Shown one piece after another: positions 2,801 to 45,723 of a DNA stretch of 64,000 nucleotides. Position numbers and translations under genes: made by a program. Under the pieces are notes generated by a model. That model had not been told where the DNA came from and ran no database searches. It worked only from the letters and a program-made list of their open reading frames with translations. Source of the stretch: Candidatus Coatesbacteria bacterium (GTDB lineage: Bacteria; JAFGND01); NCBI GenBank assembly GCA_016927185.1, contig JAFGND010000023.1, forward strand, positions 1-64,000, given 5' to 3'. The stretch's first letter is position 1. Each line of letters opens with the position of its first letter.

Positions 2801-3580
2801 TTACAATTCCACTTTGAAAAAACCTTTCAAGATGAAAGCAAACAGGATTGTAAGCAGGAAATATGGATACAGCCAGTAGGTTTTTACTGACAGGAATTCT
2901 ATTTCCCTTTCTGGATATTTAATCTCGTAAGCTTGTATGCCATCAAGAGCATTATATGGAACGGGAGAGAGTATTCCTGAAAGGGATTTACTTGAACCGC
3001 TAAAGAGAAATGAGTTTTTTGAACCTTTTACCTTGATTTCTCTGGTCTTATCTGACAGTTTTATTATTGCATCCTTATCTGAATTGTACTTTAATCTCCA
3101 GTAATATCTGTTTTCTTCTTCCAGGAAAAAAGGATCTGTTTCCTTGATTAATCCCTTGAATTCAACATCAGGTTTATTTATTCCTCTCAAAGAGAAAAGA
3201 AATGTTTCGTTTTTCTTGAATGGTCTATGTGCCAGATGAGGCTCAACCTGTATTATCAGAACAATTGCAGGAATTATTAAATATGCAACTGGTTTGAGAT
3301 TAGCAAGAAAGTATTTCAGGTTGGCAGAAAGAACAAATTTCAAGCTCTTTACTGTTTGTGCAGGATTATCCTTGAATAGAAGCATTTCCAGTATCCCTGC
3401 TTTTACCATGGATTTTGCTGTTTTTATTTTAAGAGGATCACTTACTTTCTTGTAAACAAACAGGGCTAAAACTGATGTCAGAAGTGAAATCAAGGTGATA
3501 GCTACCCAGTCAGGCAAGGATATTGCAATAAAAGAGAAAGGTATGAACAAGGTAGTAAGGAAGTAATTCAGATAATGCAC
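2801..3580 (-). CDS. Hypothetical membrane protein
   Basis: 259 aa ORF, N-terminal hydrophobic helices; start codon overlaps stop of upstream 63-aa ORF (translational coupling). Confidence 0.5.
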   Translation of the reverse strand: MHYLNYFLTTLFIPFSFIAISLPDWVAITLISLLTSVLALFVYKKVSDPLKIKTAKSMVKAGILEMLLFKDNPAQTVKSLKFVLSANLKYFLANLKPVAYLIIPAIVLIIQVEPHLAHRPFKKNETFLFSLRGINKPDVEFKGLIKETDPFFLEEENRYYWRLKYNSDKDAIIKLSDKTREIKVKGSKNSFLFSGSSKSLSGILSPVPYNALDGIQAYEIKYPEREIEFLSVKTYWLYPYFLLTILFAFILKGFFKVEL

Positions 3581-3771
3581 TATAAATAACCAAGTCCCTG
3601 CAGTTTTTCTTTTATTGCTTCGCTGTCAGTTTCTCCTTCAAACTTTGCTATTTCCTGCTCAAGTATATGTGAAACAAACTCATCAATACTGCTATAACCT
3701 GCTTTTTCAGATATCTGCTTGAGTCTCTCGTACAATCCGTCAGCTATCTTTATTTTTTTCCCTCCGAACAT
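3580..3771 (-). CDS. Small ribbon-helix-helix-like (CopG/Arc-type) protein
   Basis: 63 aa; N-terminal KKIKIADGLYERLKQIS resembles RHH beta-strand+helix; coupled to downstream membrane protein. Confidence 0.4.
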   Translation of the reverse strand: MFGGKKIKIADGLYERLKQISEKAGYSSIDEFVSHILEQEIAKFEGETDSEAIKEKLQGLGYL

Positions 3772-3781
3772 TTCTTCTCCT

Positions 3782-5770
3782 TTACAAAATTATCTTCCCG
3801 TCATAATCATTTGGAACTGGGATATTGAAAATGTTCAATACTGTTGGTGCAATATCAATGAGAGAAGGATTGGCATCAATAAGCTTCCTGTTGCTAAGGA
3901 ATACTCCTGGAACCCTGTTGTAATCTATACAGTGATCACCAGACCATTTACCTTTGTTAGGTCTTATAATCCATTCAGTTATTTTACCCAGAGCGCTTTG
4001 CCATGCAATTCTGTAATCCCTCTCAAATCCGAGAATTATATCCGGAGATTCATTCATGAATTCACCTTTGAAAATCTCAGTGGCTTTATAAATATTTGCA
4101 AAAACATTTTTGTTAGTTGCAGGATCCTTCAATGCAAGCAATTTTTCCTTGATTTCTTCTAATAATCCTTTTTCCTCATTAGGCGTCACTATTCCCTGTG
4201 CTTCCCTGTTCCTTTTATTAAGATAAAGTCCATTCAAGCCATATGCATATGCTCTTGTCTGTGGCCAGTCAACATCAATAAAAGCTTCATTATCACTTGA
4301 CTTCAAGCCATCGCTGAAATAAAGGTATTTGTTTTCATGAAGCCAGGAGTTGACATTTACTGAATACTTGAAAGAAGCAAAACCATGATCGCTGCAAATG
4401 ATTATTATATCATCTTTATCAAGTTCTGACAGAATTTTTCCAAGCATAACATCAAATGATAAATAAAGATCCCTGATAGCATTTTTTATTTCAAGACATT
4501 CCTTGATATTATAAGCAGGATGATGTTCATCAAGTGCTCTCCATAATACATGAGTATTCTGGTCTAAACTGGAGAAATAGAAGAATAGCAAACCATCCTT
4601 GAAAGACTTGAATTCATGCTCGAAATGAGTAATACTCTCATCAAGTATATAGAGAGCTTGTTGCAGATATTCCCTGTCAGTAAGTGCTCCTGAAGTCAAT
4701 GATTTAGTATTTTCTGGCATTCCCTGCGTGTAAAACAATCCCATATCTTTAGAAAGATTTGCAGCATATCCAGAAGGTGCATCTATCGGAAGAGCCGGAT
4801 CATTGGGGTTTATATTCACTGGTGTAACATAAAGTTGGAAATCCGGATATAATGATTTCAGATAGAATCTGACAATCCCTGATATTTTCTTCATAGAACC
4901 TGCAAAAGGAAAATCTATCTCAATCCATCTTGACCATTCCTTTTCCTTTAGAAGAATCTCTTCTTTTCCAAAACGAAGCAACAATAACGACTTTTCTTTA
5001 TCCAGAAATGCCGTTCCATTTGAATATGTTGTTATTTTCTTATTCTTGAATGGATTTTCAGGTCCAGGTATTGATAAATTTACTTTGTTATTTGTTACTG
5101 CTACAGGTATTATCTGACCGCCTCCAGCTTCTTCATCCTGTATGAATTCAACATTTGTGAAAAGTGTGAACAAGCCATAAGTCCCTTGTAAATCCGGAGT
5201 ACCCATACCGCTTATGCTTTTGCCAAATCTTGTTTCTTTTGGAGGAAAGTTAGAAGGGATTTTATAAATAGTATGAGCAATTTTATGTGCATCAAGATAA
5301 TCCCAGAAAACATCACTCCTGTTCAGATTTTCGACCTTGCCTGCTGACAAGGGGATTTTCCATGAGGATAAATTCAGATTAATATCTCCACTTATACTTT
5401 TCGAAGTACTCAGGAAAGGTGTATAGAAATTGGGATCTCGGTGTATGAAATCGAAAATTCCATGTTTGGCAGGATTCTTCCCTGAAGCAAATGAAGCCCA
5501 TGCAACAGGAGATTGGGGAGGCATTACAGTACGCAGAGGGGAAAATGAACCTGTTTTTGATAACGTATAAAAATTTTTCATTAATCCTTCATTGAACATT
5601 TTTTTAAGAAAACCTGGATCCATACCATCTATTCCAAGTATTAAAATCCTTCTTCCTGTTCTTATGCTTCTGCTTTGAAGCCTGCAACCAATCATTCCAG
5701 TAGAAAGCAGACCACAAGCAGATAGCTTCAAAAAATCTCTTCTATTAATCTCGAATCTTTTTCTTGTCAT
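3782..5770 (-). CDS. TAT-secreted alkaline-phosphatase-superfamily enzyme (type I phosphodiesterase/nucleotide pyrophosphatase-like) with C-terminal extension
   Basis: 662 aa; twin-arginine motif RRDFLKLSACGLL; GIDGMDPGF metal site, Ser/Thr nucleophile region PPQSPVAWASF...HGIFDF, SDHGF motif; paralogous to ORFs at 38212-39480 and 40083-41492. Confidence 0.75.
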   Translation of the reverse strand: MTRKRFEINRRDFLKLSACGLLSTGMIGCRLQSRSIRTGRRILILGIDGMDPGFLKKMFNEGLMKNFYTLSKTGSFSPLRTVMPPQSPVAWASFASGKNPAKHGIFDFIHRDPNFYTPFLSTSKSISGDINLNLSSWKIPLSAGKVENLNRSDVFWDYLDAHKIAHTIYKIPSNFPPKETRFGKSISGMGTPDLQGTYGLFTLFTNVEFIQDEEAGGGQIIPVAVTNNKVNLSIPGPENPFKNKKITTYSNGTAFLDKEKSLLLLRFGKEEILLKEKEWSRWIEIDFPFAGSMKKISGIVRFYLKSLYPDFQLYVTPVNINPNDPALPIDAPSGYAANLSKDMGLFYTQGMPENTKSLTSGALTDREYLQQALYILDESITHFEHEFKSFKDGLLFFYFSSLDQNTHVLWRALDEHHPAYNIKECLEIKNAIRDLYLSFDVMLGKILSELDKDDIIIICSDHGFASFKYSVNVNSWLHENKYLYFSDGLKSSDNEAFIDVDWPQTRAYAYGLNGLYLNKRNREAQGIVTPNEEKGLLEEIKEKLLALKDPATNKNVFANIYKATEIFKGEFMNESPDIILGFERDYRIAWQSALGKITEWIIRPNKGKWSGDHCIDYNRVPGVFLSNRKLIDANPSLIDIAPTVLNIFNIPVPNDYDGKIIL

Positions 5771-35474: not shown

Positions 35475-35481
35475 TACAGTT

Positions 35482-36234
35482 TTAATTTATTGCCTTCAAT
35501 CCTTCTTTTATTCTAATCAAATTACCATTTTCTTTTATAATGCTTATAACATGTTTTGCCAGACACCAGGTTAGAATGGTATTATCCAGAGCATTCTTTA
35601 TCTTTGTTTCATTTGGATCCGAAATGAAATAAAAGAATGGGAGGCTTAAAAAGAAATCTTCCTTATATTGTGTTTGATATAAATATAGCGGGAAAAGTAT
35701 TTCATCACCTTCTTGCGGTATTTTATACTCGCCAAGCGAATAATAAAATTCAGGTGAGTGTATCCTGACAACTACTCTTGGTTTTCCTTTAGTTATATTA
35801 TATACGAAGTCTTTTCCCCAAAATATCTCATTTATCTCTATTTCCAGCCTTGTTTTTTTTGTCCAGAGATAATAGTGTGCAGGATCAGTATTCATAAGAT
35901 CAGGGATCGGAGTATAGGACACAGAAATGACCTTAGCTCGACATAAGACATTGGCAGCAGCAATATTTATCCAGAATCTCTCGGGACAATTCCTGAATCC
36001 ATAATGCCAATTAGGAAAGCATTCCAGTTTTATCTTCCATGAATTCAACATGATTGATCTATATACAGGGAGGAAACTATCCTTTGCAGATTCAAACACC
36101 TTGGGATCTAATTTAAAAGGCAATTCAGTATTTTTATAAAAACTGCAATCCCATGTATTATAATTCAGGAATTTGTCTTTTTCAGGAAATTTCGAAAACG
36201 AAACAATAATAAGTAAAAATCCCCAACAAAACAT
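35482..36234 (-). CDS. Hypothetical protein, first gene of rSAM operon
   Basis: 250 aa; N-terminal hydrophobic signal-like segment. Confidence 0.5.
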   Translation of the reverse strand: MFCWGFLLIIVSFSKFPEKDKFLNYNTWDCSFYKNTELPFKLDPKVFESAKDSFLPVYRSIMLNSWKIKLECFPNWHYGFRNCPERFWINIAAANVLCRAKVISVSYTPIPDLMNTDPAHYYLWTKKTRLEIEINEIFWGKDFVYNITKGKPRVVVRIHSPEFYYSLGEYKIPQEGDEILFPLYLYQTQYKEDFFLSLPFFYFISDPNETKIKNALDNTILTWCLAKHVISIIKENGNLIRIKEGLKAIN

Positions 36235-36401
36235 ACTAGTCTCCTTTTTTGATTAGTTTGATAAGCAGATATACTCAAAACTGTCAATTGGAAAAACTAT
36301 ATTATTAAAGTATGCAAAGAAAAAACTAATCTAATTGCTACTTTACTAATTTATGAAAGAAAATATTCCAGGATAGATTTCATGGGTCAAAGATGAGTTT
36401 T

Positions 36402-36773
36402 TTATCTCTTTGACACTGAAAAAGTCCCGCTGGCTGTACCATCATCATCTGGATAATACCATTTACCATTAACATTATCCTGTTCAAATGCTCCTTCAAT
36501 TCTGCCTTGATGATCCAGATCAATATATATCTTGAATTTACCTTGTTCATCAATCTTGCCGTACCAGCCAGAAAACTCTTTTTCAACTTCTTCCTCTGAA
36601 AGTTTTACCCTTATCTTTATATAACCATTATTGATATTATTGTCTTTAACATTGAAATAAATGGGAAGAGATTGATTTGTCTGACCTGAATAATCGCCAT
36701 AAGCAGTATTATCTCCGGGATCTGTACAGGATAAAATGAAGAAACAAAAGCAAAATATAATAAGTGCTTTCAT
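36402..36773 (-). CDS. Small lipoprotein
   Basis: 123 aa; lipobox FFILSC at end of signal peptide. Confidence 0.55.
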   Translation of the reverse strand: MKALIIFCFCFFILSCTDPGDNTAYGDYSGQTNQSLPIYFNVKDNNINNGYIKIRVKLSEEEVEKEFSGWYGKIDEQGKFKIYIDLDHQGRIEGAFEQDNVNGKWYYPDDDGTASGTFSVSKR

Positions 36774-36792
36774 GTCTATATTTTACGGACAA

Positions 36793-37512
36793 TCACAAAA
36801 GATTTCTGTGAGGTGAAAGTATTTCTGCTATTTGCTTTCCCATAAGTATATATTGCTTGAGTTCTTCCTTATCCTCTATCAAACCAGTTTTTTGAAAAGT
36901 TGCATCATGACCTTCCAGGGTAAAATCTATGTTGTTATATTTGAAACTGCACATGGCAATAAAAACCTGCTTGAAATGGCTATTGACAACTTGTATGGCT
37001 GAATCAGGATTATTGCATTTTATAATGTATTGCCCGTCAAAGTCAGGATCACCTATTTCTATGTCTTGCATACCAAGGGATTTTCCTATCTTTGAAAAAA
37101 AACCTTCTGGATAGATCCTGAGTTTGTATTCATAAGGTTTTTCGAATTCAATGAAAATATCAGTATAGAAGATTGGGTTTTTACCTCCTGAAGAATGATA
37201 AGTACAACGGAGTTTTGAACCTTTCAAAGGCAATTCCAAAACAGGAAATCCTGTATTCCTGGGAATATTATTCGGATTGAGTAATTCCTTTGATTTTCCT
37301 TGAAAAATAAAGGAGGTTAAGTCTATAAATTTCAAAGGTTTTTCATATATAGCTCCAATCTCAAGAGCAATTTCCTCAAATACTTTATGTCTACGTTCTG
37401 ATCTTTTTTTTGCTGAAATTATGGAATAACTAAGAGAGATTATAAATATTGAGAGGAACAAAATGAACATGATAACTGGAAACATATTTGACAGTAGATT
37501 ACCGAAATTCAT
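36793..37512 (-). CDS. Membrane-anchored hypothetical protein (paralog A)
   Basis: 239 aa; single N-terminal TM; shares DxDFDxxYxIKxxNPDxA motif with adjacent 216-aa ORF. Confidence 0.55.
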   Translation of the reverse strand: MNFGNLLSNMFPVIMFILFLSIFIISLSYSIISAKKRSERRHKVFEEIALEIGAIYEKPLKFIDLTSFIFQGKSKELLNPNNIPRNTGFPVLELPLKGSKLRCTYHSSGGKNPIFYTDIFIEFEKPYEYKLRIYPEGFFSKIGKSLGMQDIEIGDPDFDGQYIIKCNNPDSAIQVVNSHFKQVFIAMCSFKYNNIDFTLEGHDATFQKTGLIEDKEELKQYILMGKQIAEILSPHRNLL

Positions 37513-37521
37513 ATATACTCC

Positions 37522-38172
37522 TTATAGCTGTTTACGTAAGTTATTACTAAAAGTTTCTCCCAGCTCTTTTGAATTCACAAGAAAGAGTTTCAAATTATCT
37601 TTGTTACAGATTGATATATCTCTGTCAATATTAATTTCAGCTTCATTTATGATTATTGTCATGAAATCCTTCTTGTCTCCATGAATACCTCTGATGCAAT
37701 TCTTTATATTATTATTCAAAATTTTTCTAGCCTTATCCGGATTATCAGTTTTTATTTTATATTCTTTATCAAAATCACTATCATTAGTTTCTATTTCTAT
37801 CAAATGGACTTCTTTTGGGAAAGGAGAAGCCATATTCAAAATCTCATATAAATCCTCAGGAATGATTAAAATCTTGCAAAATAATGAGTTATAGAGGTTC
37901 AGTATTAGTTTGTTTTCGTTCTTCTTATGAATGAAGACTCCTTCTCCTCCTTTGAATCTGAATTCTATTTGCAGATGTCTTTCTTGATCATTTCCTGAAA
38001 TTTTAATTCCTTCCATAAAAAAAGGTTCAATGTCTTTTATGAAATCAGTGCTTATGCTTCTATTCCTTCTATAAGCTATTCTTGAAAGAAAATAAATAAC
38101 AATGATGATTAATGCCATTTTGAAGTAAATTGAATTTGTAATAATCATGATATTATTAATAATATTATTCAT
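37522..38172 (-). CDS. Membrane-anchored hypothetical protein (paralog B)
   Basis: 216 aa; single N-terminal TM; conserved motif NDSDFDKEYKIKTDNPDKA matching paralog A. Confidence 0.55.
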   Translation of the reverse strand: MNNIINNIMIITNSIYFKMALIIIVIYFLSRIAYRRNRSISTDFIKDIEPFFMEGIKISGNDQERHLQIEFRFKGGEGVFIHKKNENKLILNLYNSLFCKILIIPEDLYEILNMASPFPKEVHLIEIETNDSDFDKEYKIKTDNPDKARKILNNNIKNCIRGIHGDKKDFMTIIINEAEINIDRDISICNKDNLKLFLVNSKELGETFSNNLRKQL

Positions 38173-38211
38173 TACCTATTTTCAGATCAAGTATTTACTG
38201 GAATCAATAAA

Positions 38212-39480
38212 TTAATAATCAAGAAGAAAATTCAGTATATATTCACCGACATTCTGAATAGATATGCATTCTGGCATTAATTGATTTGTTATACGGAATG
38301 CATTGTCATATGTATGGCAGCCAGTTATATGAGTACTATTAAAAACTTCCTTAGTATTAAGCCTTGCTTTTAAATCGTAACCATGCTTCGGAAGAATTAC
38401 CATGTCTGGTGCAATATCCAGAAACTCGCCTTTATATATATCTTCTTTCCTGAATACTTTTTCTATTACTGCTTCATTATTATATTTCAATGTAAAGAGT
38501 TTGCTCTCAAGATCATCAAGGTATTTTTTACAGTCTTCTTCGGAAATTTCAAGACCATTTTCAAATATCTCTCTTTTATTCAAATATATCCTTCCTGGAT
38601 CCAGAGACATGAATAATGATTTTCCGCTAATATCTTCTATGCTTGCAGGATGGCTTTTATTCAGTACCATTAAGTTATTCTCGATAAGCCAGTTATTTAT
38701 ATATATTTCCTGCTTTAATCCAGTGAAACCATGATCTGAAAGCATAATGAACGGATTTTCATCAAAAAAATCATCAACCAATCTTCCAAACAGTTTGTCT
38801 ATCTTGTTGAAATATTCCATAACAAATGAGTGATATATATTACTTTTATCTGTAATTGCATGATGCATGAAATGCAGAAGCCTATCAGTTTCAGTAATAA
38901 CTCCTATCCATAAATCGTACTTGTCTTTCAAAGTCAACCTGAAACTTTTTTCCCTTATTTCGAGCATCTCAATTAAATCTTTTACAAGGAAATCCAAATC
39001 TTTTGCTTTAGTCAAATCAACATCTATTCTATATTTCATGTCCTTTAAATCCCTGTAGAAGGAAAGCGGATATACTGATTTTTCCAGTTCTAATGCCACA
39101 AAACCCGAAACCATAAGTCCATTTATCGGGGTAGCAGGATATGTACTTGGTAAATTAATGACTGCTGAAGTCATATTCTTCTCAGCTATTATTTCCCATA
39201 AAGTTTTCTTTTTCCTGTCTTTACTGTTGGGAAAAGTCAAGCTATATGATGGTCTGTTAAAATCCATGAATCCAAATATGCCATGCTCAGCAGGATTTGA
39301 AGCAGTCATGAAAGATGTCCATGCAACTGACGAAATAGGCGGGTAAGAGCTCAGAAGAGGGACAAAGCTGGATTCAGATTGATCTATATAACTTTTGAAA
39401 TTTGGCATTATCCCGGCATCAATATATTCGCTTATCAGACTGAATGGAGTCCCGTCTAATCCCAGTACATAAAAAGCCAT
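38212..39480 (-). CDS. Cytoplasmic alkaline-phosphatase-superfamily enzyme (type I phosphodiesterase/nucleotide pyrophosphatase-like)
   Basis: 422 aa; no signal peptide; LGLDGT, PPISSVAWTSF...HGIFGF, LSDHGF motifs; stop overlaps cysC start. Confidence 0.75.
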   Translation of the reverse strand: MAFYVLGLDGTPFSLISEYIDAGIMPNFKSYIDQSESSFVPLLSSYPPISSVAWTSFMTASNPAEHGIFGFMDFNRPSYSLTFPNSKDRKKKTLWEIIAEKNMTSAVINLPSTYPATPINGLMVSGFVALELEKSVYPLSFYRDLKDMKYRIDVDLTKAKDLDFLVKDLIEMLEIREKSFRLTLKDKYDLWIGVITETDRLLHFMHHAITDKSNIYHSFVMEYFNKIDKLFGRLVDDFFDENPFIMLSDHGFTGLKQEIYINNWLIENNLMVLNKSHPASIEDISGKSLFMSLDPGRIYLNKREIFENGLEISEEDCKKYLDDLESKLFTLKYNNEAVIEKVFRKEDIYKGEFLDIAPDMVILPKHGYDLKARLNTKEVFNSTHITGCHTYDNAFRITNQLMPECISIQNVGEYILNFLLDY

Positions 39481-40079
39481 TAAATATATCCCAGATCTTC
39501 AAGTCTTTTCTTGATTTTTGCTTCTTCATCAGGGGAATAAACATTCTTTATGAAAGTGCGATTTGTTATGAAACCTTTTTCTTGAAGATAATTCAGTATT
39601 GTTTCCACGCTTTCCTCTATAGATGTATTTTTTAACTCAATTTCAGGATTTAATGGTGGTTCATAAGGATCATCCACTCCAGTGAAGTCTTTTATTTCAC
39701 CTTTTCTTGCTTTTGCATACATTCCCTTTACATCCCTTTGTTCACATATTTCAATTGGGGTATTCATATATACCTCTATGAAATTCGTACAGGATTGTCT
39801 GGCATCAAAACGCGCTTTCCTGTAAGGTGAAATAAAAGAGACAATAACAGCAACTTCATTTCTGGATAAAAGCTTTGCTACAAAAGTAACTCTATCGATA
39901 TTTTTATCCCTGTCTTCTTTTGAAAATCCAAGATCCTTGCATAAGGATTTTCTGACAACATCCCCATCAAGTCTCTCCACCTTCAATCCTAGATCTGTCA
40001 ACTCCTTTGCTAAAGCATCTGCTATAGTTGTTTTTCCAGAACATGGTAAACCGGTAAACCAAATACAAAATCCATTCAT
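39480..40079 (-). CDS. cysC: Adenylylsulfate (APS) kinase
   Basis: 199 aa; FWFTGLPCSGKTT P-loop, LDGDVVR, classic CysC. Confidence 0.9.
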   Translation of the reverse strand: MNGFCIWFTGLPCSGKTTIADALAKELTDLGLKVERLDGDVVRKSLCKDLGFSKEDRDKNIDRVTFVAKLLSRNEVAVIVSFISPYRKARFDARQSCTNFIEVYMNTPIEICEQRDVKGMYAKARKGEIKDFTGVDDPYEPPLNPEIELKNTSIEESVETILNYLQEKGFITNRTFIKNVYSPDEEAKIKKRLEDLGYI

Positions 40080-40082
40080 TTA

Positions 40083-41492
40083 TCACTCCTCGTAAAAACT
40101 ACTTTTCCAAAATGATGTTCCCAAATAGTGATTTGGTTTTTTTATCCCGAAAGCCTCAAGGACAGTTGGGGCAATATGATAAATTGCTTGATGATCCAGC
40201 CAGTTTTCTCCGATTCCAGGATGATACAAGAGGAAAAATCCATCTTGGGCATGATTAGCATCATCAGGCCCCGTATCATTTTCATGAGTGTATAGTCTGG
40301 AGGTCCCAACAGTACCTTGACTTCGCCATGAAAGATCACCTAAGTATAGAATAATATCAGGTGGAATTCCATTAGTTTCATGATATATCTCATCAGGTAA
40401 ATATGCCTTGTTGTTCATGCAGATTCCGTTGTCATCAAGAATTGCTTCAAGTTTCTTTTTCAGTTCTTCAAGGAAATCCTTTTTCTGGTTTTCTTTTATT
40501 ATCCCTCTGGGTTCTCTGCCAGCAATGTTTAAAAAAATCCTTGAATAGTATCCTCCCTCTCCATAACAATATGTATTATCCCAGTCAATAATATCGTGAC
40601 TAATTTTTAGTGCTTTCTTTGGGGTTTCTATCAGTTTCAAATAACCTTCTTGCATTAGCCATTCATTGATATAGAAACCGCCTTTCATTGCTTTTGCTCC
40701 ATGATCAGATACTATGAAAATTGCGATTTCTTCATTATCTATATAAGGATTCAAAAGCTCCTCAAGGTTTTTGTCAAGAGAAATGTAGTACTTTTCTACT
40801 ACATTTTTCAGGATGCTATCAGGCTTATATAATGGATGCTCTTCATCGAAATATTTCCAGAAACCATGATGTAGTCTGTCAGGTCCCATAAAAACTGCCA
40901 TGAAGAAATCCCATTCTTTGCTTTCAAGAAGAAATTTTGCTGCCTTGAAGCGAGCTTTTGTCATTTTGTAAATCTCTTTTATCAACCATTCCTTATCTTG
41001 TGTTCGGAAATTATTGACATCTATCTGATAATCAGGTACTGCTAGTAGAAGTTCCTTTTTAAGCTCTTTTGGATAAGTAAAATCTGAATTGAGGTCTGGA
41101 GTAAGAAAACACCCTACAAGATTGCCCTTTATTGGTTTAGGTGGATATGTTTGAGGAACATTTAGTATTGTAGATTTCAATCCAGCTTCTCCCAAAATAT
41201 CCCACAATAAAGGCTTCTTAATAAACGTGCTGTTAGCAATCACTTGATCATTATAGTCATAACTTCCTCTGTTTCTGAAGCCATAAATACCTAGCTGACC
41301 TGGATCCTGAGAAGTCATCATAGTCATCCATGCTGGTACAGTGATCGCTGGAATGGTACTCCTGAGTGTTCCATAACGAGAACTCTGTTTGAGTTTGTTG
41401 AAGAAATCAAGTTGATTAACGAATCTGCTATTCACAAGCTGAGGCGCAAGACAATCAAGTCCTATAATAATGAATTTTTTAATCTGTGGCAT
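40083..41492 (-). CDS. Cytoplasmic alkaline-phosphatase-superfamily enzyme (type I phosphodiesterase/nucleotide pyrophosphatase-like), paralog
   Basis: 469 aa; IIGLDCLAP, ITVPAWMTMMTS...GIYGF, VSDHGA motifs. Confidence 0.75.
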   Translation of the reverse strand: MPQIKKFIIIGLDCLAPQLVNSRFVNQLDFFNKLKQSSRYGTLRSTIPAITVPAWMTMMTSQDPGQLGIYGFRNRGSYDYNDQVIANSTFIKKPLLWDILGEAGLKSTILNVPQTYPPKPIKGNLVGCFLTPDLNSDFTYPKELKKELLLAVPDYQIDVNNFRTQDKEWLIKEIYKMTKARFKAAKFLLESKEWDFFMAVFMGPDRLHHGFWKYFDEEHPLYKPDSILKNVVEKYYISLDKNLEELLNPYIDNEEIAIFIVSDHGAKAMKGGFYINEWLMQEGYLKLIETPKKALKISHDIIDWDNTYCYGEGGYYSRIFLNIAGREPRGIIKENQKKDFLEELKKKLEAILDDNGICMNNKAYLPDEIYHETNGIPPDIILYLGDLSWRSQGTVGTSRLYTHENDTGPDDANHAQDGFFLLYHPGIGENWLDHQAIYHIAPTVLEAFGIKKPNHYLGTSFWKSSFYEE

Positions 41493-41499
41493 TACATTC

Positions 41500-42657
41500 C
41501 TATTCTACAAATGGTTTTGGATAATTGATCATAATATCACTTATTTCTTTTCTTGTCATTTCCTCAGGAATAGATATGTGTTTTATAATCATCTCCCTTA
41601 CTAATGAACCGGAAAGATAAATTCTTTCTGAATCTCCATGAGGACATGTTTTTGAAGTTGCCATCTGATCACAAGTACTGCAAAAGAAAGAATTCTCGAA
41701 ACAAAGTGGTTTTATTTCAAGTTTATTGAAAGGCATTTTTTCAAAAATTTTTTGTGCGTCGTAAGTCCCATAATATTTTCCAACACCTGCATGATCACGT
41801 CCTACAATAAAGTGGGTACAACCGAAATTTTGACGAATAATTGCATGAAAGATTGCTTCTTTAGGACCTGCGTAGTTCATCTTCATAGGCAAAATGCTCA
41901 TAACAGCTCTGTTTTTAGGATAAAAATCTGAGATCATCTTTTCATAAACTGCTATTATTACTTCGTCTTTAAAGTCACCAGACTTCTTTTTCCCAATGAC
42001 AGGATTAATGAAAAGTCCATCAACAACTTCTAATGCACATTTCTGAAGATATTCATGAGAACGATGAACTGGATTTCTGGTCTGAAAAGCAACAACTGTC
42101 TGCCAGCCTTTTTCCCTGAAAAGAATCCTTGTTTCAAGGGGATCCAGATTATATTCAGGAAATGGTTGCCTGTTTGTATCTATAAGATCAATTCTTCCAG
42201 CAACATAATATTCCTTTTTTGAGAGAAAACCCGCAACTCCTGGATGTTTTTCATCATTAGTCTGAAATACGCTTGAAACAAGCTTGTTTACATCAGGTTT
42301 ATATATTTCTTCAACTAGCATGGAAGCTAAAGGTGAATTATCCTCATTTTTTATAAGAACATGCCTGCCTTCTTTCAATTTTATAGCCGTTTCATGATCA
42401 ATATCCAATACAATTGGAACTGTCCATATAAGTCCGTTTTCAAGAATGCTGTCATCTATTATTGCTGAAAGATCAATTTTGGACAGAAAGCCATTCAAGG
42501 GACTGTAGATACCCCTGCAGATATTTCTTATATCCTTGGAAGTCTCTTCATCAACAATAATTGATATCCAGTTGCAGCAGTTTTCAAGAACATTCTCTCT
42601 TTCTTCACCCTGAAGAATTCTTCTGATCAGTTGTCCTCCATGTGGTTTTATTTGCAT
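41500..42657 (-). CDS. sat: Sulfate adenylyltransferase (ATP sulfurylase)
   Basis: 385 aa; QTRNPVHRSHE and GRDHAGVG motifs of ATP sulfurylase. Confidence 0.9.
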   Translation of the reverse strand: MQIKPHGGQLIRRILQGEERENVLENCCNWISIIVDEETSKDIRNICRGIYSPLNGFLSKIDLSAIIDDSILENGLIWTVPIVLDIDHETAIKLKEGRHVLIKNEDNSPLASMLVEEIYKPDVNKLVSSVFQTNDEKHPGVAGFLSKKEYYVAGRIDLIDTNRQPFPEYNLDPLETRILFREKGWQTVVAFQTRNPVHRSHEYLQKCALEVVDGLFINPVIGKKKSGDFKDEVIIAVYEKMISDFYPKNRAVMSILPMKMNYAGPKEAIFHAIIRQNFGCTHFIVGRDHAGVGKYYGTYDAQKIFEKMPFNKLEIKPLCFENSFFCSTCDQMATSKTCPHGDSERIYLSGSLVREMIIKHISIPEEMTRKEISDIMINYPKPFVE

Positions 42658-42658
42658 C

Positions 42659-43642
42659 TTAAATCCCTTCTTTTATTTCCTTCTTTAACCTTTTAGTTTC
42701 AGGAATTTCAGACAATTTCAACAAAAAAGTCTTTGAAAGTTTTAAATATTTGTCTGCATTTTCGACATCACCGCTTGTTTTATATGATTTTGCCAGATGA
42801 AAATTGAAAAGAGCAAGGTTGTAATTACTTATTGGCTTTATTTCATTTACTTTATTAAGCCCAAGATTAAGGTAATCAATGGATGATTTGATTTCATTAT
42901 TACTGACAGAGCATATTGATAAAATATAGTATGGCCATGGATCCCTTGGGAATAACTTGTTAATATTTTTTGCAACTTCTTCAGTCTTCGTAAAATCCTT
43001 TTTTTGATAATAAATATCAAGAAGAACAAACATGGAAGAGGGATATGAATATAAACCTTTTTCTATCGATGTTCTCAAGTATTTTTCCGTATCAGTATTC
43101 TTCATGAGAATACCTCCGCCTATATCCTTCCAATGTAAAAACATTCCCATTCCACCATAAGCATCATAAAACTCTGGTTCTGCATCTATTATCTGTTTCA
43201 TCAAGTTATAACCTTTATATGCAAGCCTGAATGCCCCGATTAAGGCACCATTCCTTGCAAGATGAATTGCTTGTAAACCATAACTTGATCCAAGATAATA
43301 TTTTGCCCACAAATCCTTGTTATTACTATAAATATTATCATTAGAAAATTTCTGGCATTTTTTTACATTAGCAATAAATTCTTTTTCCTTGCTATTGTCT
43401 TCCATATCTTGCATAATCATTTCATATACCATTGCCTTGAAGAAGTAAGCTGAAGGATTATCAGGGAATTTGTTTTCAAGGGAGTCCAATACAGCGAGTG
43501 ATTCATCATAGTATTTCTGATGCATTTTTTCTAATGCGCTTTTCAGATATTTATATCTTATGGAGTTTTTCTCTTGAGAGTGCTGATTTCCTTCAATTTG
43601 CTCTATTGAGAAAATTAAAATAAAAACTAATAAAATAATCAT
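42659..43642 (-). CDS. Secreted TPR-repeat protein
   Basis: 327 aa; signal peptide then TPR-like helical repeats. Confidence 0.55.
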   Translation of the reverse strand: MIILLVFILIFSIEQIEGNQHSQEKNSIRYKYLKSALEKMHQKYYDESLAVLDSLENKFPDNPSAYFFKAMVYEMIMQDMEDNSKEKEFIANVKKCQKFSNDNIYSNNKDLWAKYYLGSSYGLQAIHLARNGALIGAFRLAYKGYNLMKQIIDAEPEFYDAYGGMGMFLHWKDIGGGILMKNTDTEKYLRTSIEKGLYSYPSSMFVLLDIYYQKKDFTKTEEVAKNINKLFPRDPWPYYILSICSVSNNEIKSSIDYLNLGLNKVNEIKPISNYNLALFNFHLAKSYKTSGDVENADKYLKLSKTFLLKLSEIPETKRLKKEIKEGI

Positions 43643-44268
43643 TCGGATTTATCTATTATTTTTGCTCCAGATGGTAGCCTAAATTCAAAATGCTTGCTAT
43701 CCAATTTTGGATTTATAATTATATCAGAAAAAGTATAAACGATTTTACTCTCAGTATCGTCTTCATATGCTATTCTGTAAATAATACTATCTGTCCCCAC
43801 CCAGATTTCCATCTTAACAAAGTCTGTTTTTTCATTCCTCGGAACCAGAAAAAGCTTTTTGCATATCCTGCCATCTATTTTTTCAGAACCAACATAAGTA
43901 ACATCAGATTCCTCAGGATATTTATAAATCAAATCCTTAAATCTTAATCCATATTCCAGCTTATTTGTTGAGAATTTCATAACTTGTTTGTTTACCGGTG
44001 AATACAAATAAATGAAATCTCCCGTACTCAAAAGGAATTGACCTTTTGGATGAATATATTCAAGCAATAATTTATTCGGTTCAGAAACATATATCTTACC
44101 ATTCAATGCTCTCCATTTGTTCAATTCTGACCAAATATTCACCTGCCTGAAAACACCTTGAAATGAATTAATTTTCTTATATTTTTCTTGAATCTGTTTT
44201 ATTATCTCATCAGTATTTTCTGCAAGAATAACAGTGCACGAAAGTAATATTATCAGTAAGTATTTCAT
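43639..44268 (-). CDS. LolA-like outer-membrane lipoprotein carrier family protein
   Basis: 209 aa; signal peptide, FxGxFxQ motif (INSFQGVFRQ) typical of LolA/LolB fold. Confidence 0.65.
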   Translation of the reverse strand: MKYLLIILLSCTVILAENTDEIIKQIQEKYKKINSFQGVFRQVNIWSELNKWRALNGKIYVSEPNKLLLEYIHPKGQFLLSTGDFIYLYSPVNKQVMKFSTNKLEYGLRFKDLIYKYPEESDVTYVGSEKIDGRICKKLFLVPRNEKTDFVKMEIWVGTDSIIYRIAYEDDTESKIVYTFSDIIINPKLDSKHFEFRLPSGAKIIDKSE

Positions 44269-44362
44269 ATTACCTCAAGGTTAAATAACGGACATTCTGA
44301 CAAGCGTTTTCTTGCAATATATCAAGAATAAAAGCCTGGTTCATCAAATTAATACCATAAAC

Positions 44363-45712
44363 CTACTTTTTCTTCTTTGTCTCTAATCCAGCTTCCATAT
44401 CAAGCTTGAGATGCTTAAGAAAATAAGCCTTTATCTTTTTCACGTTTTCATCACTTATTTTACGTTCTAAAGGGAATTCTGCTGAACATGAAACCCATCT
44501 AAAGAGTAGGATTTCAAGAAATCTGCCATAATCTTCCAATGCTTGCCGATCTAGCCATGAAATTGTATCTTCCTCTGTATGCAAGACATTATTGGAAGGA
44601 GAGGATCTGGCAAATTGAAGAGCGGGAATGCCATGATAAGCTAAACTTGTACCATCAGATGACATTGCATATTCCTTGATATCTAATTTGAATCCCAATT
44701 CTTTTGAAAGCAATTGCATTCCTACGATATGATCCGAACAACCTGCAACTGCAACATGATTTGTTCCCAGTAATGCACCATGAACATCTATATTGATTGT
44801 TAGTAGGTGATTATCTAGCTCAGTCTTATCCCAGATTTTAATATATTCTTTTTTTTCCTTTTCTTTCTTGTCTTTTTTTGCTAGTTCCTTGATATAATAT
44901 CTGCTTCCATTTAATCCTCTTTCCTCACTCCCGAATGCGATAAATCTGATTGTTCGTTTGCTTCCATGTATTGAAAAAATTCTTGCGAGTTCCATTACTA
45001 TTGCGGTTCCTCCTGCATTATCAGAAGCTCCACTTCCTTCCCATATAGAATCATAATGTCCACAAACAACAATAATCTCTTCAGGATAAAGACCTCCTTT
45101 CAATTCACCAATTACGTTCTGGCTGGTTGACGGTTTTATATCTTGCTCTGTTATGATAGTCATTTTTTTAGGTTTAGCTTTTACCAGTTTTAAACCATCA
45201 TCATATGAAATCATCAATGTTGGCTGATTTGCCAGTATTTTGTCCCATTCTTCGAGACGTTCAATATGCAGTGCTTTTGTACCTCTTGATGAACCAATAA
45301 CTATAACTCCTGCAGGTTCATATTCATCCATCTTTTTTCTCAGTTTGTCATCAAGAGCTCCATATCTGACAATGATTTTGTTCTTGATATCAGGTGTAAT
45401 TTCCAGAGGACTTCCTGAAAGGCACCAGACAATATCAGAAGTAATTCCTTTGGTTGGCGTATTTGAGCACAATCCATAAGATCTGCAATGTATGTCTCCT
45501 GTTTCTCTGGAAGTAATGAATGATTTTTTTACAGAGAAATCCTTCGTCTTGAATTCCTGTAAATATGACTTCAAGCCCCATTCCTTGAATCTCTCTAAAA
45601 TATAATAAGCTGCTTTTTTTTCTTCTCTTGAACCTCCCAGTCTTGCACCAATATTAACAGATAAATGATTCAGAAATTCAAAAGATGCCTTACCACTGAA
45701 TAAGTTTTTCAT
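44363..45712 (-). CDS. M28-family zinc aminopeptidase
   Basis: 449 aa; HYDS...D...GASDNAGG, EE, H metal ligands in M28 order. Confidence 0.75.
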   Translation of the reverse strand: MKNLFSGKASFEFLNHLSVNIGARLGGSREEKKAAYYILERFKEWGLKSYLQEFKTKDFSVKKSFITSRETGDIHCRSYGLCSNTPTKGITSDIVWCLSGSPLEITPDIKNKIIVRYGALDDKLRKKMDEYEPAGVIVIGSSRGTKALHIERLEEWDKILANQPTLMISYDDGLKLVKAKPKKMTIITEQDIKPSTSQNVIGELKGGLYPEEIIVVCGHYDSIWEGSGASDNAGGTAIVMELARIFSIHGSKRTIRFIAFGSEERGLNGSRYYIKELAKKDKKEKEKKEYIKIWDKTELDNHLLTINIDVHGALLGTNHVAVAGCSDHIVGMQLLSKELGFKLDIKEYAMSSDGTSLAYHGIPALQFARSSPSNNVLHTEEDTISWLDRQALEDYGRFLEILLFRWVSCSAEFPLERKISDENVKKIKAYFLKHLKLDMEAGLETKKKK

Positions 45713-45723
45713 ATAAACCTTCC

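What the first reader, a model, noticed from the sequence alone, without database searches (positions are those of the whole stretch)
36402..44268. Sulfate-activation genes interleaved with two cytoplasmic AP-fold enzymes in a nine-gene envelope-associated operon
On the minus strand, in order: LolA-like carrier, secreted TPR protein, sat (ATP sulfurylase), AP-superfamily enzyme, cysC (APS kinase), second AP-superfamily enzyme, two paralogous single-TM proteins, small lipoprotein. Spacings are 0-40 nt and several stop/start overlaps occur. There is no cysH/cysDN/cysIJ nearby, so PAPS made here is more likely a sulfuryl donor than an assimilation intermediate. The two AP-fold proteins have the metal-site and Ser/Thr-nucleophile motifs of type I phosphodiesterase/nucleotide pyrophosphatase enzymes (GLDG..., P-x-x-S/T-x-VAW, SDHG) but no signal peptides. 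The AP superfamily works through covalent Ser/Thr or fGly intermediates. These enzymes could be PAPS-dependent sulfotransferases of a non-canonical fold. Alternatively they could be PAP(S)/APS pyrophosphatases. Together with the membrane and lipoprotein partners they may sulfate an envelope lipid or glycan.
Basis: inference. Interest (0 to 1): 0.7.

Follow-up and report, generated by a model that had tools for sequence, protein, structure and literature searches.

The report
PAPS genes wired to AP-fold enzymes
The two enzymes that make activated sulfate (PAPS) here form a gene module, conserved across many bacterial phyla and not described in any paper I could find, with alkaline-phosphatase-fold enzymes and a newly noticed C-terminal peptide tail, which may mark an unrecognised route for sulfating cell-envelope molecules.

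Summary
Nine tightly packed minus-strand genes at 36402-44268 encode LolA-like, TPR, Sat, AP1 (PF01663), CysC, AP2 (PF01663), two paralogous single-TM proteins and a lipoprotein.

The conserved unit is only Sat-AP1-CysC-AP2. LolA, the TM proteins and the lipoprotein are local additions. The real conserved partners lie 32 kb away: an exported AP4 paralogue, a small RHH-like protein and a membrane protein (2801-5770).

New finding: CysC ends in a roughly 20-aa tail (...KKRLEDLGYI) that is absent from solved APS kinases. The same tail ends AP-fold enzymes of both the PF01663 and PF00884 types, degenerate CysC remnants, RHH proteins, a CobW-type GTPase and a PF01507 protein. In a sample chosen by the tail alone, 74 of 84 informative loci carry an AP-fold gene, and 21 of 21 tail-bearing CysC genes have one adjacent.

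Best reading (about 0.37): a sulfation metabolon in which the tail tethers CysC to AP-fold enzymes that use PAPS. The chemistry is untested. A PAP or PAPS hydrolase role remains a serious rival. No description was found in the literature.

The parts
41500..42657 (-). Sat, ATP sulfurylase (sopT type). First gene of the conserved core.
   Evidence: PF14306 plus PF01747. NF003166 scores 513 bits against a cut-off of 387. The QTRNPVHRSH and GRDHAG motifs are read directly from the translation. It lies upstream of AP1 on the same strand in 23 of 80 related loci, mostly with gaps of 14-100 nt.
40083..41492 (-). AP1, a cytoplasmic NPP-like alkaline-phosphatase-superfamily enzyme. It keeps the Asp13/Thr51/Asp205-His209/Asp263-His264/His414 pattern. 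It is the hub gene of the module.
   Evidence: PF01663 at 5e-47. More than 8000 homologues at about 50% identity across phyla. Invariant residues. AF2 pLDDT 92.5. The closest solved folds are ENPP1/3, PhnA and Xac NPP at TM 0.55-0.6 and 12-16% identity. A profile search of PDB sequences found nothing at E<0.01.
39480..40079 (-). CysC, APS kinase with an intact P-loop (GLPCSGKTT) and a C-terminal extension.
   Evidence: PF01583 at 3e-63. NF002059 246.7 bits against 244; TIGR00455 224 against 139. Solved APS kinases align only up to about residue 160-174, or to 191 in the longer bifunctional PAPSS1, out of 199.
39483..39545 (-). C-terminal tail of CysC, 'VYSPDEEAKIKKRLEDLGYI'. Proposed docking peptide.
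   Evidence: Present on 31 of 34 complete module-linked CysC proteins. The profile finds 343 proteins at E<=1e-3 in 1.84e9 representatives, and nearly all of the top 150 matches end at or one residue from the C-terminus. No significant match in PDB (best E 0.12).
38212..39480 (-). AP2, the second cytoplasmic PF01663 enzyme, with a Ser50 nucleophile ('PISSVAW'). Its start overlaps the CysC stop by 1 nt.
   Evidence: PF01663 at 6e-35. It has its own orthologous family at 40-53% identity. It follows CysC in L083, L084/85 and L089, and follows a tail-bearing PF01507 protein in L087. None of 120 homologues carries the tail.
3782..5770 (-). AP4-type paralogue, 662 aa, with a Tat-like signal 'NRRDFLK' and a lipobox 'MIGC'. 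Exported member of the same system.
   Evidence: 44% and 41% identical over its full length to the AP4 proteins of L084 and L086, which complete the Sat-AP1-CysC-AP2-AP3-AP4 module there. N-terminus and catalytic motifs.
3580..3771 (-). 63-aa RHH-like protein ending in the tail '...EAIKEKLQGLGYL'.
   Evidence: Same position (after AP4) and same sequence type as the 63-64-aa proteins of L030, L065, L084 and L086. Pfam gives no hit. The RHH assignment is by sequence pattern only.
2801..3580 (-). 259-aa multi-TM membrane protein that closes the AP4 sub-module.
   Evidence: 30% identity (E=9e-36 and 3e-33) to the 274-aa and 259-aa proteins that end the modules of L084 and L086. The L084 protein has a weak EMC3/TMCO1-like hit. 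The window copy has none.
42659..43642 (-). Secreted TPR protein. A neighbour at the Coatesbacteria level only.
   Evidence: Weak TPR hits. A TPR fragment also precedes sat in L083. No match in the 80 other loci.
43639..44268 (-). LolA-like periplasmic carrier. Probably housekeeping and not part of the conserved module.
   Evidence: PF03548 at 7e-14. TIGR00547 is below its cut-off. No counterpart near AP1 in 80 loci.
36402..38172 (-). TM1, TM2 (paralogues) and a small lipoprotein. Lineage-specific additions of unknown role.
   Evidence: Sub-threshold DUF3137 hits. TM1/TM2 paralogy E=1.6e-10. Absent from L083 and from the 80 loci.

Best explanation
The window carries a conserved system, not described in any paper I could find, that couples PAPS synthesis to alkaline-phosphatase-fold enzymes. 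Sat and CysC make PAPS. This step follows from firm family membership.

CysC ends in a short amphipathic tail (...RLxxLGY[ILV]-COOH). The same tail is found on AP-fold enzymes, on CysC remnants that have lost the kinase P-loop, on RHH-like regulators and on a CobW-type metallochaperone. I infer that the tail is a docking peptide that tethers these partners to an AP-fold enzyme, most likely AP1 or AP2. CysC would then hand PAPS directly to that enzyme.

I further infer that the cytoplasmic AP-fold enzymes use PAPS as a sulfuryl donor, through a covalent Thr51 (AP1) or Ser50 (AP2) intermediate. The acceptor would be a cytoplasmic or lipid-linked envelope glycan or lipid precursor. PAP would be released and then removed, by a PHP-family pAp phosphatase in many genomes and possibly by one of the AP paralogues here.

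The membrane protein and the exported AP4 (2801-5770) would handle the product at or beyond the membrane.

Shown: gene identities, recurrent synteny, and the distribution of the tail. Inferred: docking, PAPS use, sulfuryl transfer, and the nature of the acceptor.
For: 1. Synteny. 25 of 52 well-flanked AP1 loci from many phyla have sat and/or cysC adjacent on the same strand (14 have both), with gaps mostly under 130 nt. AP2 follows CysC in L083, L084/85 and L089.
2. No assimilation genes. No cysH, sulfite reductase, sulfate permease or canonical sulfotransferase is among the recurrent neighbours or in the window.
3. Tail on CysC. It is on 31 of 34 module CysC proteins. It is kept on P-loop-less CysC remnants in loci without CysC. 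It is absent from all solved APS kinases.
4. Unbiased test. Among loci chosen only by the tail's DNA motif, 74 of 84 informative ones have the tail on an AP-fold protein or within 1.5 kb of one. All 21 tail-bearing CysC genes with adequate flanks have an AP gene adjacent.
5. Other carriers. The tail is also on a PF01507 protein upstream of AP2, and on a CobW GTPase (P0341, PF02492 at 6e-43). A CobW-like tail carrier, L157, lies 14 nt from an AP1-type gene. That fits delivery of metal to a Zn-dependent client.
6. PAP is made. A PHP protein matching the pAp hydrolase Cv1693 (PDB 2yb1, E=9e-31; activity per PMC8268124) lies within 200 nt of the tail gene in 19 loci. This implies PAP is produced.
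7. Glycan context. Tail-bearing, signal-less AP-fold relatives lacking the fGly motif sit in polysaccharide clusters and in a haloarchaeal AglB N-glycosylation cluster.
8. Precedent. AP-superfamily transferases that use a Thr nucleophile, such as LtaS and EptA, are established knowledge.
Against: - Two-metal Thr/Ser AP sites strongly favour attack at phosphorus over sulfur (established enzymology of AP and NPP). The default chemistry on PAPS would therefore be hydrolysis to PAP plus sulfate, or removal of the 3'-phosphate.
- In L087, AP2 sits beside a canonical Sulfotransfer_1 gene. There AP2 looks like an accessory and not the sulfotransferase.
- About half of AP1 genes are not next to sat or cysC. 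Some sit among housekeeping-type genes.
- About 50% identity across phyla suits a universal small-molecule substrate better than variable acceptors.
- AP4 is exported to a compartment that has no PAPS.
- The tail's receptor is unknown. The AF2 model of a tail-fused AP1 gives only pLDDT 75-82 for the tail helix, with no contact information.
- No acceptor has been identified.
Confidence: 0.37

Rival explanations
1. AP1 and/or AP2 are nucleotide-recycling 3'-phosphatases, working as analogues of CysQ. They would hydrolyse the by-product PAP (pAp) to AMP plus Pi, or trim PAPS back to APS. The real sulfotransferase or PAPS reductase would be encoded elsewhere.
For: - High conservation across phyla suits a universal small-molecule substrate.
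- The enzymes are cytoplasmic and also occur as stand-alone genes among housekeeping-type neighbours. pAp also arises from CoA and ACP metabolism (established knowledge).
- In L087, AP2 lies between a PF01507 protein and a canonical Sulfotransfer_1 gene, where a PAP phosphatase would be the expected accessory.
- The window holds no cysQ-type gene.
- Two-metal AP sites are good phosphatases.
Against: - A PHP-family pAp-hydrolase-like gene sits in the same module in many loci: 7 of 80 and 19 of 120. A second PAP phosphatase there would be redundant.
- The known pAp phosphatases belong to the CysQ, DHH and PHP families, not the AP fold.
- It does not explain four differently located paralogues, including a membrane-anchored and an exported one.
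- It does not explain why the PAPS producer CysC should be tethered by a tail.
Confidence: 0.22
2. The AP enzymes perform ordinary NPP chemistry on the phosphosulfate bond, attacking phosphorus with sulfate as the leaving group. They would act as APS/PAPS sulfohydrolases that control the activated-sulfate pool. Alternatively they would transfer AMP or 3'-phospho-AMP from APS or PAPS to an acceptor.
For: - The closest folds are nucleotide pyrophosphatases (ENPP1/3, Xac NPP).
- All NPP metal ligands and the Thr nucleophile are retained.
- Loci with sat and AP1 but only a dead CysC remnant (L009, L062) suggest APS can be the substrate.
Against: - Placing a hydrolase that destroys the product between the two biosynthetic genes, translationally coupled to them, in many phyla amounts to a futile cycle.
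- If only an adenylyl donor were needed, ATP would serve and Sat and CysC would be unnecessary.
- It does not explain the glycan-cluster contexts of the tail-bearing relatives.
Confidence: 0.13
3. The AP paralogues are phosphodiesterases or phosphotransferases acting on a phosphorylated envelope polymer or lipid, for example during phosphate scavenging or remodelling. Their linkage to sat and cysC would reflect co-regulation, such as replacing phosphate groups with sulfate groups, and not shared chemistry.
For: - PF01663 membership.
- Exported AP4 and membrane-anchored AP3.
- Metallophos phosphoesterases lie near the AP4 sub-module in the window (6719-7558) and in L084.
- Capsule and O-antigen genes flank the operon (Wzy_C, Wzi).
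Against: - It does not explain the shared tail on CysC, PF01507 and AP enzymes.
- It does not explain the 1-7 nt coupling of sat, AP1, cysC and AP2.
- It does not explain the co-resident pAp phosphatase-like gene.
Confidence: 0.08
4. AP1 is a pyrophosphatase that pulls the unfavourable ATP-sulfurylase reaction forward by removing PPi.
For: AP1 lies immediately downstream of sat in 23 of 80 loci. The Sat reaction needs PPi removal (established thermodynamics). AP-superfamily enzymes can hydrolyse PPi.
Against: - AP1 is linked to cysC at least as often as to sat (36 against 31 loci).
- It also occurs with neither, for example beside a sulfatase in Poribacteria.
- Ubiquitous Ppa or HppA enzymes already do this job.
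- It explains neither AP2-AP4 nor the tail.
Confidence: 0.04

Closest known systems
Nucleotide pyrophosphatase/phosphodiesterases (NPP/ENPP; Pfam PF01663), e.g. ENPP1/3 and Xanthomonas NPP
   Same: Pfam family. AP fold with two-metal ligands and a Thr/Ser nucleophile. These are the best structural matches.
   Different: Only 12-16% identity and TM about 0.55-0.6. A profile search of PDB sequences found nothing. AP1 and AP2 are cytoplasmic and not secreted. They contain an extra inserted region ('GGYYGRIFLN.KGRE'). They are embedded between sat and cysC and belong to the tail network.
PAPS-utilisation gene clusters: sat/cysDN plus cysC plus a canonical sulfotransferase plus a PAP phosphatase (e.g. 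rhizobial nodPQ-nodH; mycobacterial cysDNC/stf/cysQ). Cited from my own knowledge.
   Same: Dedicated PAPS synthesis genes are clustered with PAPS-consuming and PAP-recycling functions, separate from assimilatory cysH/cysIJ.
   Different: The conserved core has no PF00685/PF13469-type sulfotransferase and no CysQ. AP-fold enzymes occupy those positions. A shared C-terminal tail links the components.
AP-superfamily group transferases with a Thr nucleophile (LtaS, EptA/MCR-1, OpgB, PigN). Cited from my own knowledge.
   Same: AP-fold enzymes that form a covalent Thr intermediate and transfer the group to an envelope acceptor instead of to water. Membrane-associated or periplasmic paralogues exist (compare AP3 and AP4).
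   Different: Those enzymes transfer phospho-alcohol groups from lipid donors outside the cytoplasm. AP1 and AP2 are soluble, cytoplasmic and linked to PAPS.
Haloferax volcanii Agl7 (HVO_2046)
   Same: Genetically required for sulfation of a dolichol-phosphate-linked hexose during N-glycan assembly (PMC3892788). Tail-bearing, signal-less AP-fold 'sulfatase-like' genes lie in a haloarchaeal AglB/glycosyltransferase/flippase cluster.
   Different: I recall Agl7 as sulfatase-like, but I could not verify its fold or the presence of the tail with the tools. The archaeal family is PF00884-type, whereas AP1 and AP2 are PF01663-type.
C-terminal partner-binding tails of RHH antitoxins and other docking peptides. 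An analogy from my own knowledge.
   Same: A short C-terminal peptide on an RHH-like DNA-binding protein, and on enzymes, that plausibly folds onto a partner enzyme.
   Different: No toxin is present. The same tail is shared by a kinase, metalloenzymes, a GTPase and regulators. The receptor has not been identified.

Membership tests
Type I phosphodiesterase / nucleotide pyrophosphatase (PF01663) | Match to the family HMM above the gathering score | tested here: met
   AP1 161.5 bits and AP2 121.9 bits against a cut-off of 23. The AP4-type protein at 3782-5770 is 41-44% identical to the PF01663 proteins of L084 and L086.
Type I phosphodiesterase / nucleotide pyrophosphatase (PF01663) | AP fold with a two-metal site (Asp, Asp/His, Asp/His, His) and a Thr/Ser nucleophile | tested here: met
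   D13, T51, D205, H209, D263, H264 and H414 are invariant in 20 AP1 orthologues. Equivalent residues are present in AP2 and AP4. AF2 model plus Foldseek hits to ENPP1/3, PhnA and Xac NPP, probability 1.0.
Type I phosphodiesterase / nucleotide pyrophosphatase (PF01663) | Hydrolysis of nucleotide pyrophosphate or phosphodiester bonds | not testable with these tools
   This needs an enzyme assay.
Canonical PAPS-dependent sulfotransferases (PF00685, PF13469 and relatives) | Sulfotransferase fold with PAPS-binding 5'-PSB and 3'-PB motifs, i.e. a match to these Pfam families | tested here: not met
   None of the nine proteins has such a hit. AP1 and AP2 have the AP fold. They are therefore not members. 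Whether they work like sulfotransferases remains open.
Formylglycine-dependent sulfatases (PF00884) | C/S-x-P-x-R motif at the nucleophile position | tested here: not met
   AP1 has T-V-P-A-W and AP2 has S-S-V-A-W. PF00884 is not reported for AP1 or AP2 at E<=0.01.
pAp (PAP) phosphatases: CysQ/IMPase, DHH/NrnA, PHP/Cv1693 | Membership of one of the three folds known to carry this activity (PMC8268124) | tested here: not met
   AP1 and AP2 hit only PF01663. An analogous activity on an AP fold is not excluded.
ATP sulfurylase (Sat, sopT type) | NCBIfam/TIGRFAM score above cut-off, plus catalytic motifs | tested here: met
   NF003166 513 bits against 387; TIGR00339 400 against 323. The QTRNPVHRSH and GRDHAG motifs are read from the translation.
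APS kinase (CysC) | NCBIfam/TIGRFAM score above cut-off, plus P-loop | tested here: met
   NF002059 246.7 bits against 244; TIGR00455 224 against 139. P-loop GLPCSGKTT. Residues about 175-199 lie outside the kinase domain of stand-alone solved homologues.
LolA outer-membrane lipoprotein carrier | Equivalog-level match (TIGR00547) | tested here: inconclusive
   95.4 bits is below the cut-off of 112, while Pfam LolA at 52 bits is above its cut-off of 23.6. I call it LolA-like.

The most novel reading that the evidence does not exclude
Cytoplasmic AP-fold enzymes form a previously unrecognised class of PAPS-coupled sulfotransferases found in both bacteria and archaea. This would include PF01663-type AP1 and AP2 and the PF00884-type 'sulfatase-like' proteins that lack the fGly motif.

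The ...RLxxLGY[ILV]-COOH tail would be the assembly code of a sulfation metabolon. It would dock CysC (PAPS supply), a Zn chaperone and RHH regulators onto these enzymes. In the boldest version, its invariant Tyr acts as a swinging-arm aryl-sulfate carrier.

This would identify the long-missing enzymes that sulfate archaeal N-glycans and many bacterial envelope glycans.
Probability: 0.28. Interest if true: 0.9.

Novelty: new variant of a known kind. Interest (0 to 1): 0.72.

Why it matters
PAPS-dependent sulfation in prokaryotes is currently attributed to a few sulfotransferase folds. The enzymes that sulfate many bacterial exopolysaccharides and archaeal N-glycans have not been identified.

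This work gives three things:
- A module of PAPS-synthesis genes and AP-fold enzymes, conserved from Chloroflexota to Planctomycetota to candidate phyla.
- A portable C-terminal tail that also marks AP-fold enzymes inside glycan-assembly clusters, including a haloarchaeal AglB locus.
- A concrete and testable candidate set: a family with thousands of members, a defined nucleophile to mutate, and a 20-residue peptide for binding assays.

Even if the chemistry turns out to be PAP or PAPS hydrolysis, the result would be a fourth structural class of pAp/PAPS phosphatase, plus a new protein-docking motif that organises sulfate activation.

Tried and rejected
- **Promoter and terminator scan of 35400-45900:** counts at or below the shuffled expectation. 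Uninformative for operon limits.
- **PDB sequence search with the AP1 profile:** no hits.
- **afdb50 fold library:** unavailable.
- **Literature:** ten searches found no description of the module, COG3379 function, Coatesbacteria sulfur genes or AP-fold sulfotransferases.
- **Agl7's protein family:** could not be confirmed. The supplement is not held and no text states it.
- **AF2 of the naturally tail-fused AP1 (P0049):** the tail is helical at pLDDT 75-82, but without PAE or coordinates I cannot decide whether it docks.
- **The search for related loci with the tail alignment or a tail peptide:** Replaced by a degenerate DNA pattern scan.
- **Context look-ups of tail proteins P0341 and P0275:** unproductive.
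- **TM1, TM2, the lipoprotein and LolA as conserved partners:** rejected. No tblastn matches in 80 loci, and absent from L083.
- **TM1/TM2 as homologues of the 259-274-aa module membrane protein:** rejected, with no similarity.
- **Assimilatory sulfate reduction as the module's role:** rejected as the main reading, because no cysH, sir or cysK genes recur nearby.

Caveats:
- ORF calling in the high-GC loci was crude and produced antisense shadow ORFs.
- AP1 and AP2 labels in metagenome loci are best tblastn hits only.
- The tail scan covers only the 'KRLEDLGY' subtype.

Full report
**Source and observation**

The window is from a Candidatus Coatesbacteria MAG. AP1 and AP2 are 100% identical to NCBI proteins annotated only as 'alkaline phosphatase family protein'.

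The nine minus-strand ORFs are at the stated coordinates. Their identities:
- LolA-like: Pfam above cut-off, TIGR00547 below it
- a weakly scoring secreted TPR protein
- Sat: NF003166, 513 bits
- AP1: PF01663, 161 bits
- CysC: PF01583, 213 bits
- AP2: PF01663, 122 bits
- two single-TM paralogues with sub-threshold DUF3137 hits (E=1.6e-10 to each other)
- a lipoprotein with no family

The spacings are -4, 1, 7, 3, -1, 39, 9 and 19 nt. Neither AP protein has a signal peptide. The nine genes sit inside a longer collinear run (28993-49941). That run also holds an M28 peptidase, YdjM, a Wzy_C-type protein, two B12-radical-SAM enzymes and a Wzi capsule protein. Promoter and terminator scans were no better than chance. 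No cysH, cysDN, cysIJ, cysQ or canonical sulfotransferase occurs among the scanned window ORFs.

AP1 belongs to a very large family with about 50% identity across phyla. I fetched 80 genomic loci using an AP1 alignment and searched them by tblastn with the window's proteins.
- Among the 52 loci with at least 2.5 kb on both sides, 25 have sat and/or cysC adjacent on the same strand, and 14 have both. Across all 80 loci the figure is 43.
- Gaps are mostly under 130 nt.
- The order is Sat-AP1-CysC(-AP2) in Anaerolineae, Acidobacteriota, Latescibacterota, Krumholzibacteriia, Eisenbacteria, Schekmanbacteria and others. In Ktedonobacteraceae it is AP1-CysC-Sat.
- sat and cysC are usually single-copy genes in genomes of thousands of genes. 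Chance adjacency would be well below 1%, which is my own estimate.

Clustering of all neighbouring ORFs found no other broadly conserved gene. A family census of 140 neighbours in the sat/cysC-linked loci showed only lineage-specific themes and no assimilation genes. The themes were inositol-1-P synthase with GHMP kinase, PHP, KdsA, and a response regulator with a cyclase.

**What is conserved and what is local**

- The 71%-identical relative L083 has (TPR fragment)-Sat-AP1-CysC-AP2 and then a convergent B12-radical-SAM gene.
- LolA, TM1, TM2 and the lipoprotein have no matches in the 80 loci.
- In Schekmanbacteria the module continues as AP2-AP3(708 aa)-AP4(656 aa)-64 aa-274 aa. Aminicenantaceae has AP2-AP3-AP4-63 aa-259 aa with no sat or cysC.
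- The window contains that second half elsewhere: an AP4-type protein (3782-5770, 41-44% identical to AP4 of L084 and L086), a 63-aa protein (3580-3771) and a 259-aa membrane protein (2801-3580, 30% identity, E=9e-36).
- Topology differs among the paralogues. AP1 and AP2 are cytoplasmic. AP3 has two N-terminal TM segments. AP4 has Tat or lipoprotein signals; in the window these are 'NRRDFLK' and 'MIGC'.
- All paralogues keep the metal-ligand and Thr/Ser-nucleophile pattern.

**Fold**

AF2 gives a confident AP1 model (pLDDT 92.5). The best solved matches are ENPP1/3, PhnA, ENPP5/6 and Xac NPP, at TM about 0.55-0.6 and 12-16% identity. A sequence profile finds nothing in the PDB. AP1 is therefore a distant NPP-like enzyme with no close solved relative.

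**A shared C-terminal tail**

The window's CysC has a roughly 25-residue extension ending 'VYSPDEEAKIKKRLEDLGYI'. It resembles the end of the 63-64-aa proteins.

Where the tail occurs:
- 31 of 34 complete module-linked CysC proteins
- 16 of 120 AP1 homologues, as a fusion
- none of 120 AP2 homologues
- other AP paralogues
- RHH-like small proteins, either before sat or after AP4
- 94-150-aa CysC remnants that have lost the P-loop, in loci without CysC
- a PF01507 protein immediately upstream of AP2 in L087

A 32-position profile of the tail found 343 proteins at E<=1e-3 among 1.84 billion representatives. Nearly all of the top 150 matches end at or one residue from the C-terminus. They are CysC, CysC remnants, RHH-like proteins, AP enzymes and fragments.

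Solved APS kinases lack the tail. Stand-alone kinases align only to about residue 160-174 of 199. The profile has no significant PDB match.

**Unbiased test**

I scanned metagenome contigs for the DNA pattern encoding K-R-L-E-D-L-G-Y-x-stop and obtained 120 loci.
- Carriers were CysC (36), small proteins (40), PF01663-like enzymes (20) and others (24).
- In 74 of 84 informative loci the tail is on an AP protein or within 1.5 kb of one.
- All 21 tail-bearing CysC genes with at least 600 nt on each side have an AP gene adjacent.
- A PHP gene lies within 200 nt in 19 loci. The typical order is Sat-AP1-CysC(tail)-PHP-AP2.
- That PHP protein matches PDB 2yb1 at E=9e-31, which I take to be Cv1693. 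Cv1693 hydrolyses pAp (PMC8268124).

The 'other' carriers are informative:
- Several are PF00884 'sulfatase-family' proteins with no signal peptide. They have Thr/Ser-x-P-x-[H/S/Q] where fGly sulfatases have C-x-P-x-R. They sit beside Wzx-type flippases and GT4 glycosyltransferases.
- A CobW/HypB/UreG GTPase carries the tail (P0341, PF02492 at 6e-43). A CobW-like tail carrier (L157) lies 14 nt from an AP1-type gene.

One PF00884 subgroup is haloarchaeal, and 85 of 120 members carry the tail. In Halorubrum it lies in a cluster with GT2 and GT4 glycosyltransferases, a flippase and the oligosaccharyltransferase AglB. In Haloferax volcanii, Agl7 is required for sulfation of the DolP-linked hexose (PMC3892788). 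I recall Agl7 as sulfatase-like but could not verify that.

**Interpretation**

Firmly shown:
- A conserved Sat-AP1-CysC-AP2 core.
- An extended set consisting of AP3, AP4, an RHH protein and a membrane protein.
- A C-terminal tail that is nearly specific to PAPS-synthesis proteins and AP-fold enzymes.

Inferred:
- The tail is a docking peptide that tethers CysC, a metal chaperone and regulators to an AP-fold enzyme.
- The cytoplasmic AP enzymes consume PAPS, releasing PAP, which would explain the PHP gene.
- They probably transfer the sulfuryl group to a glycan or lipid precursor that then moves to the envelope.

I give this 0.37.

The main chemical objection is that two-metal Thr/Ser sites prefer phosphorus. 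The rivals are therefore live: a PAP/PAPS 3'-phosphatase (0.22), a phosphosulfate hydrolase or nucleotidyl transferase (0.13), an unrelated phosphodiesterase role (0.08) and PPi removal (0.04). The context of AP2 beside a canonical Sulfotransfer_1 gene and the housekeeping-like context of some AP1 genes favour an accessory role for at least some members.

**Novelty**

Ten literature searches found no description of this module. I classify it as a new variant of a known kind: a PAPS-utilisation cluster in which AP-fold enzymes and a docking tail replace the canonical sulfotransferase and CysQ. If sulfuryl transfer is demonstrated, it would be a categorically new sulfotransferase class.

Noticed in passing
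window 2801-5770 (-): A second part of the same system lies 32 kb from the flagged operon. It consists of an exported AP4-type PF01663 paralogue (Tat signal plus lipobox), a 63-aa RHH-like protein ending in the tail, and a 259-aa membrane protein. The gene order matches L084 and L086.
   Followed up: yes
window 39483-39545 (-) and 3583-3606 (-); loci L001-L211: A C-terminal tail, Y[ST]xEEExx[IV]xx[KR]LxxLGY[ILV], is shared by CysC, dead CysC remnants, RHH-like proteins, AP-fold enzymes, a PF01507 protein and a CobW GTPase. It is absent from solved APS kinases. Its receptor and function are unknown.
   Followed up: partly
L212 10001-11473 (Halorubrum sp. Ib24); P0391-P0510: A haloarchaeal PF00884 'sulfatase-like' family has no signal peptide and an S-L-[PD]-S-H motif in place of C-x-P-x-R. 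85 of 120 members carry the tail. In Halorubrum it lies in an AglB N-glycosylation cluster. It may be related to Agl7, but that is unverified.
   Followed up: partly
L094, L098, L121, L164, L172, L182 and others; L009, L032, L062: A PHP-domain protein of about 280 aa matches the pAp hydrolase Cv1693 (2yb1). It directly follows the tail-bearing gene, with a 6-17 nt gap, in many modules. The window has no such gene.
   Followed up: partly
L017, L023, L027, L037, L039, L044, L053, L058 (Poribacteria): In Poribacteria the arrangement is FemAB/GNAT-like, then a signal-less C-x-P-x-R sulfatase, then AP1. The gap before AP1 is about 17 nt in five of these loci. A Peptidase_S58 gene lies on the opposite strand. 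There is no sat, cysC or tail nearby.
   Followed up: no
L012, L019, L021, L022, L031, L036: In Brocadiales, other Planctomycetota and Nitrospinae, KdsA (Kdo-8-P synthase) lies immediately upstream of AP1, followed by cysC where the flank is present. This hints at a link to LPS-core biosynthesis.
   Followed up: no
L051, L054, L056, L060, L067, L071, L072, L079 (Ktedonobacteraceae): A divergent myo-inositol-1-phosphate synthase gene lies upstream of AP1-CysC-Sat, and a GHMP kinase lies downstream. A sulfated inositol or sugar product is possible in this lineage.
   Followed up: no
L089 6350-12658: A Zip zinc transporter gene lies on the opposite strand just upstream of CysC(tail)-AP2-AP538(tail)-AP541(tail), with no sat or AP1. 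Together with the tail-bearing CobW GTPase, this points to zinc supply for these enzymes.
   Followed up: no
window 32620-35474 (-); L083 4744-6237: Two B12-binding radical-SAM enzymes lie just downstream of the operon. A homologous type sits convergent to AP2 in the 71%-identical relative. Their role is unknown.
   Followed up: no
window 51710-52994 (-): Overlapping ThiF-family (E1-like) and prokaryotic JAB genes. This is a sulfur-carrier or ubiquitin-like activation pair, with no evident link to the finding.
   Followed up: no
window 28993-30456 (-), 46810-48300 (-), 14220-15872 (-), 56466-57638 (+): Envelope-glycan genes are scattered through the window: Wzi capsule assembly, a Wzy_C O-antigen-ligase-like protein, PMT_2 and GT2. 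This fits a glycan acceptor, but the linkage is not conserved in other genomes.
   Followed up: partly
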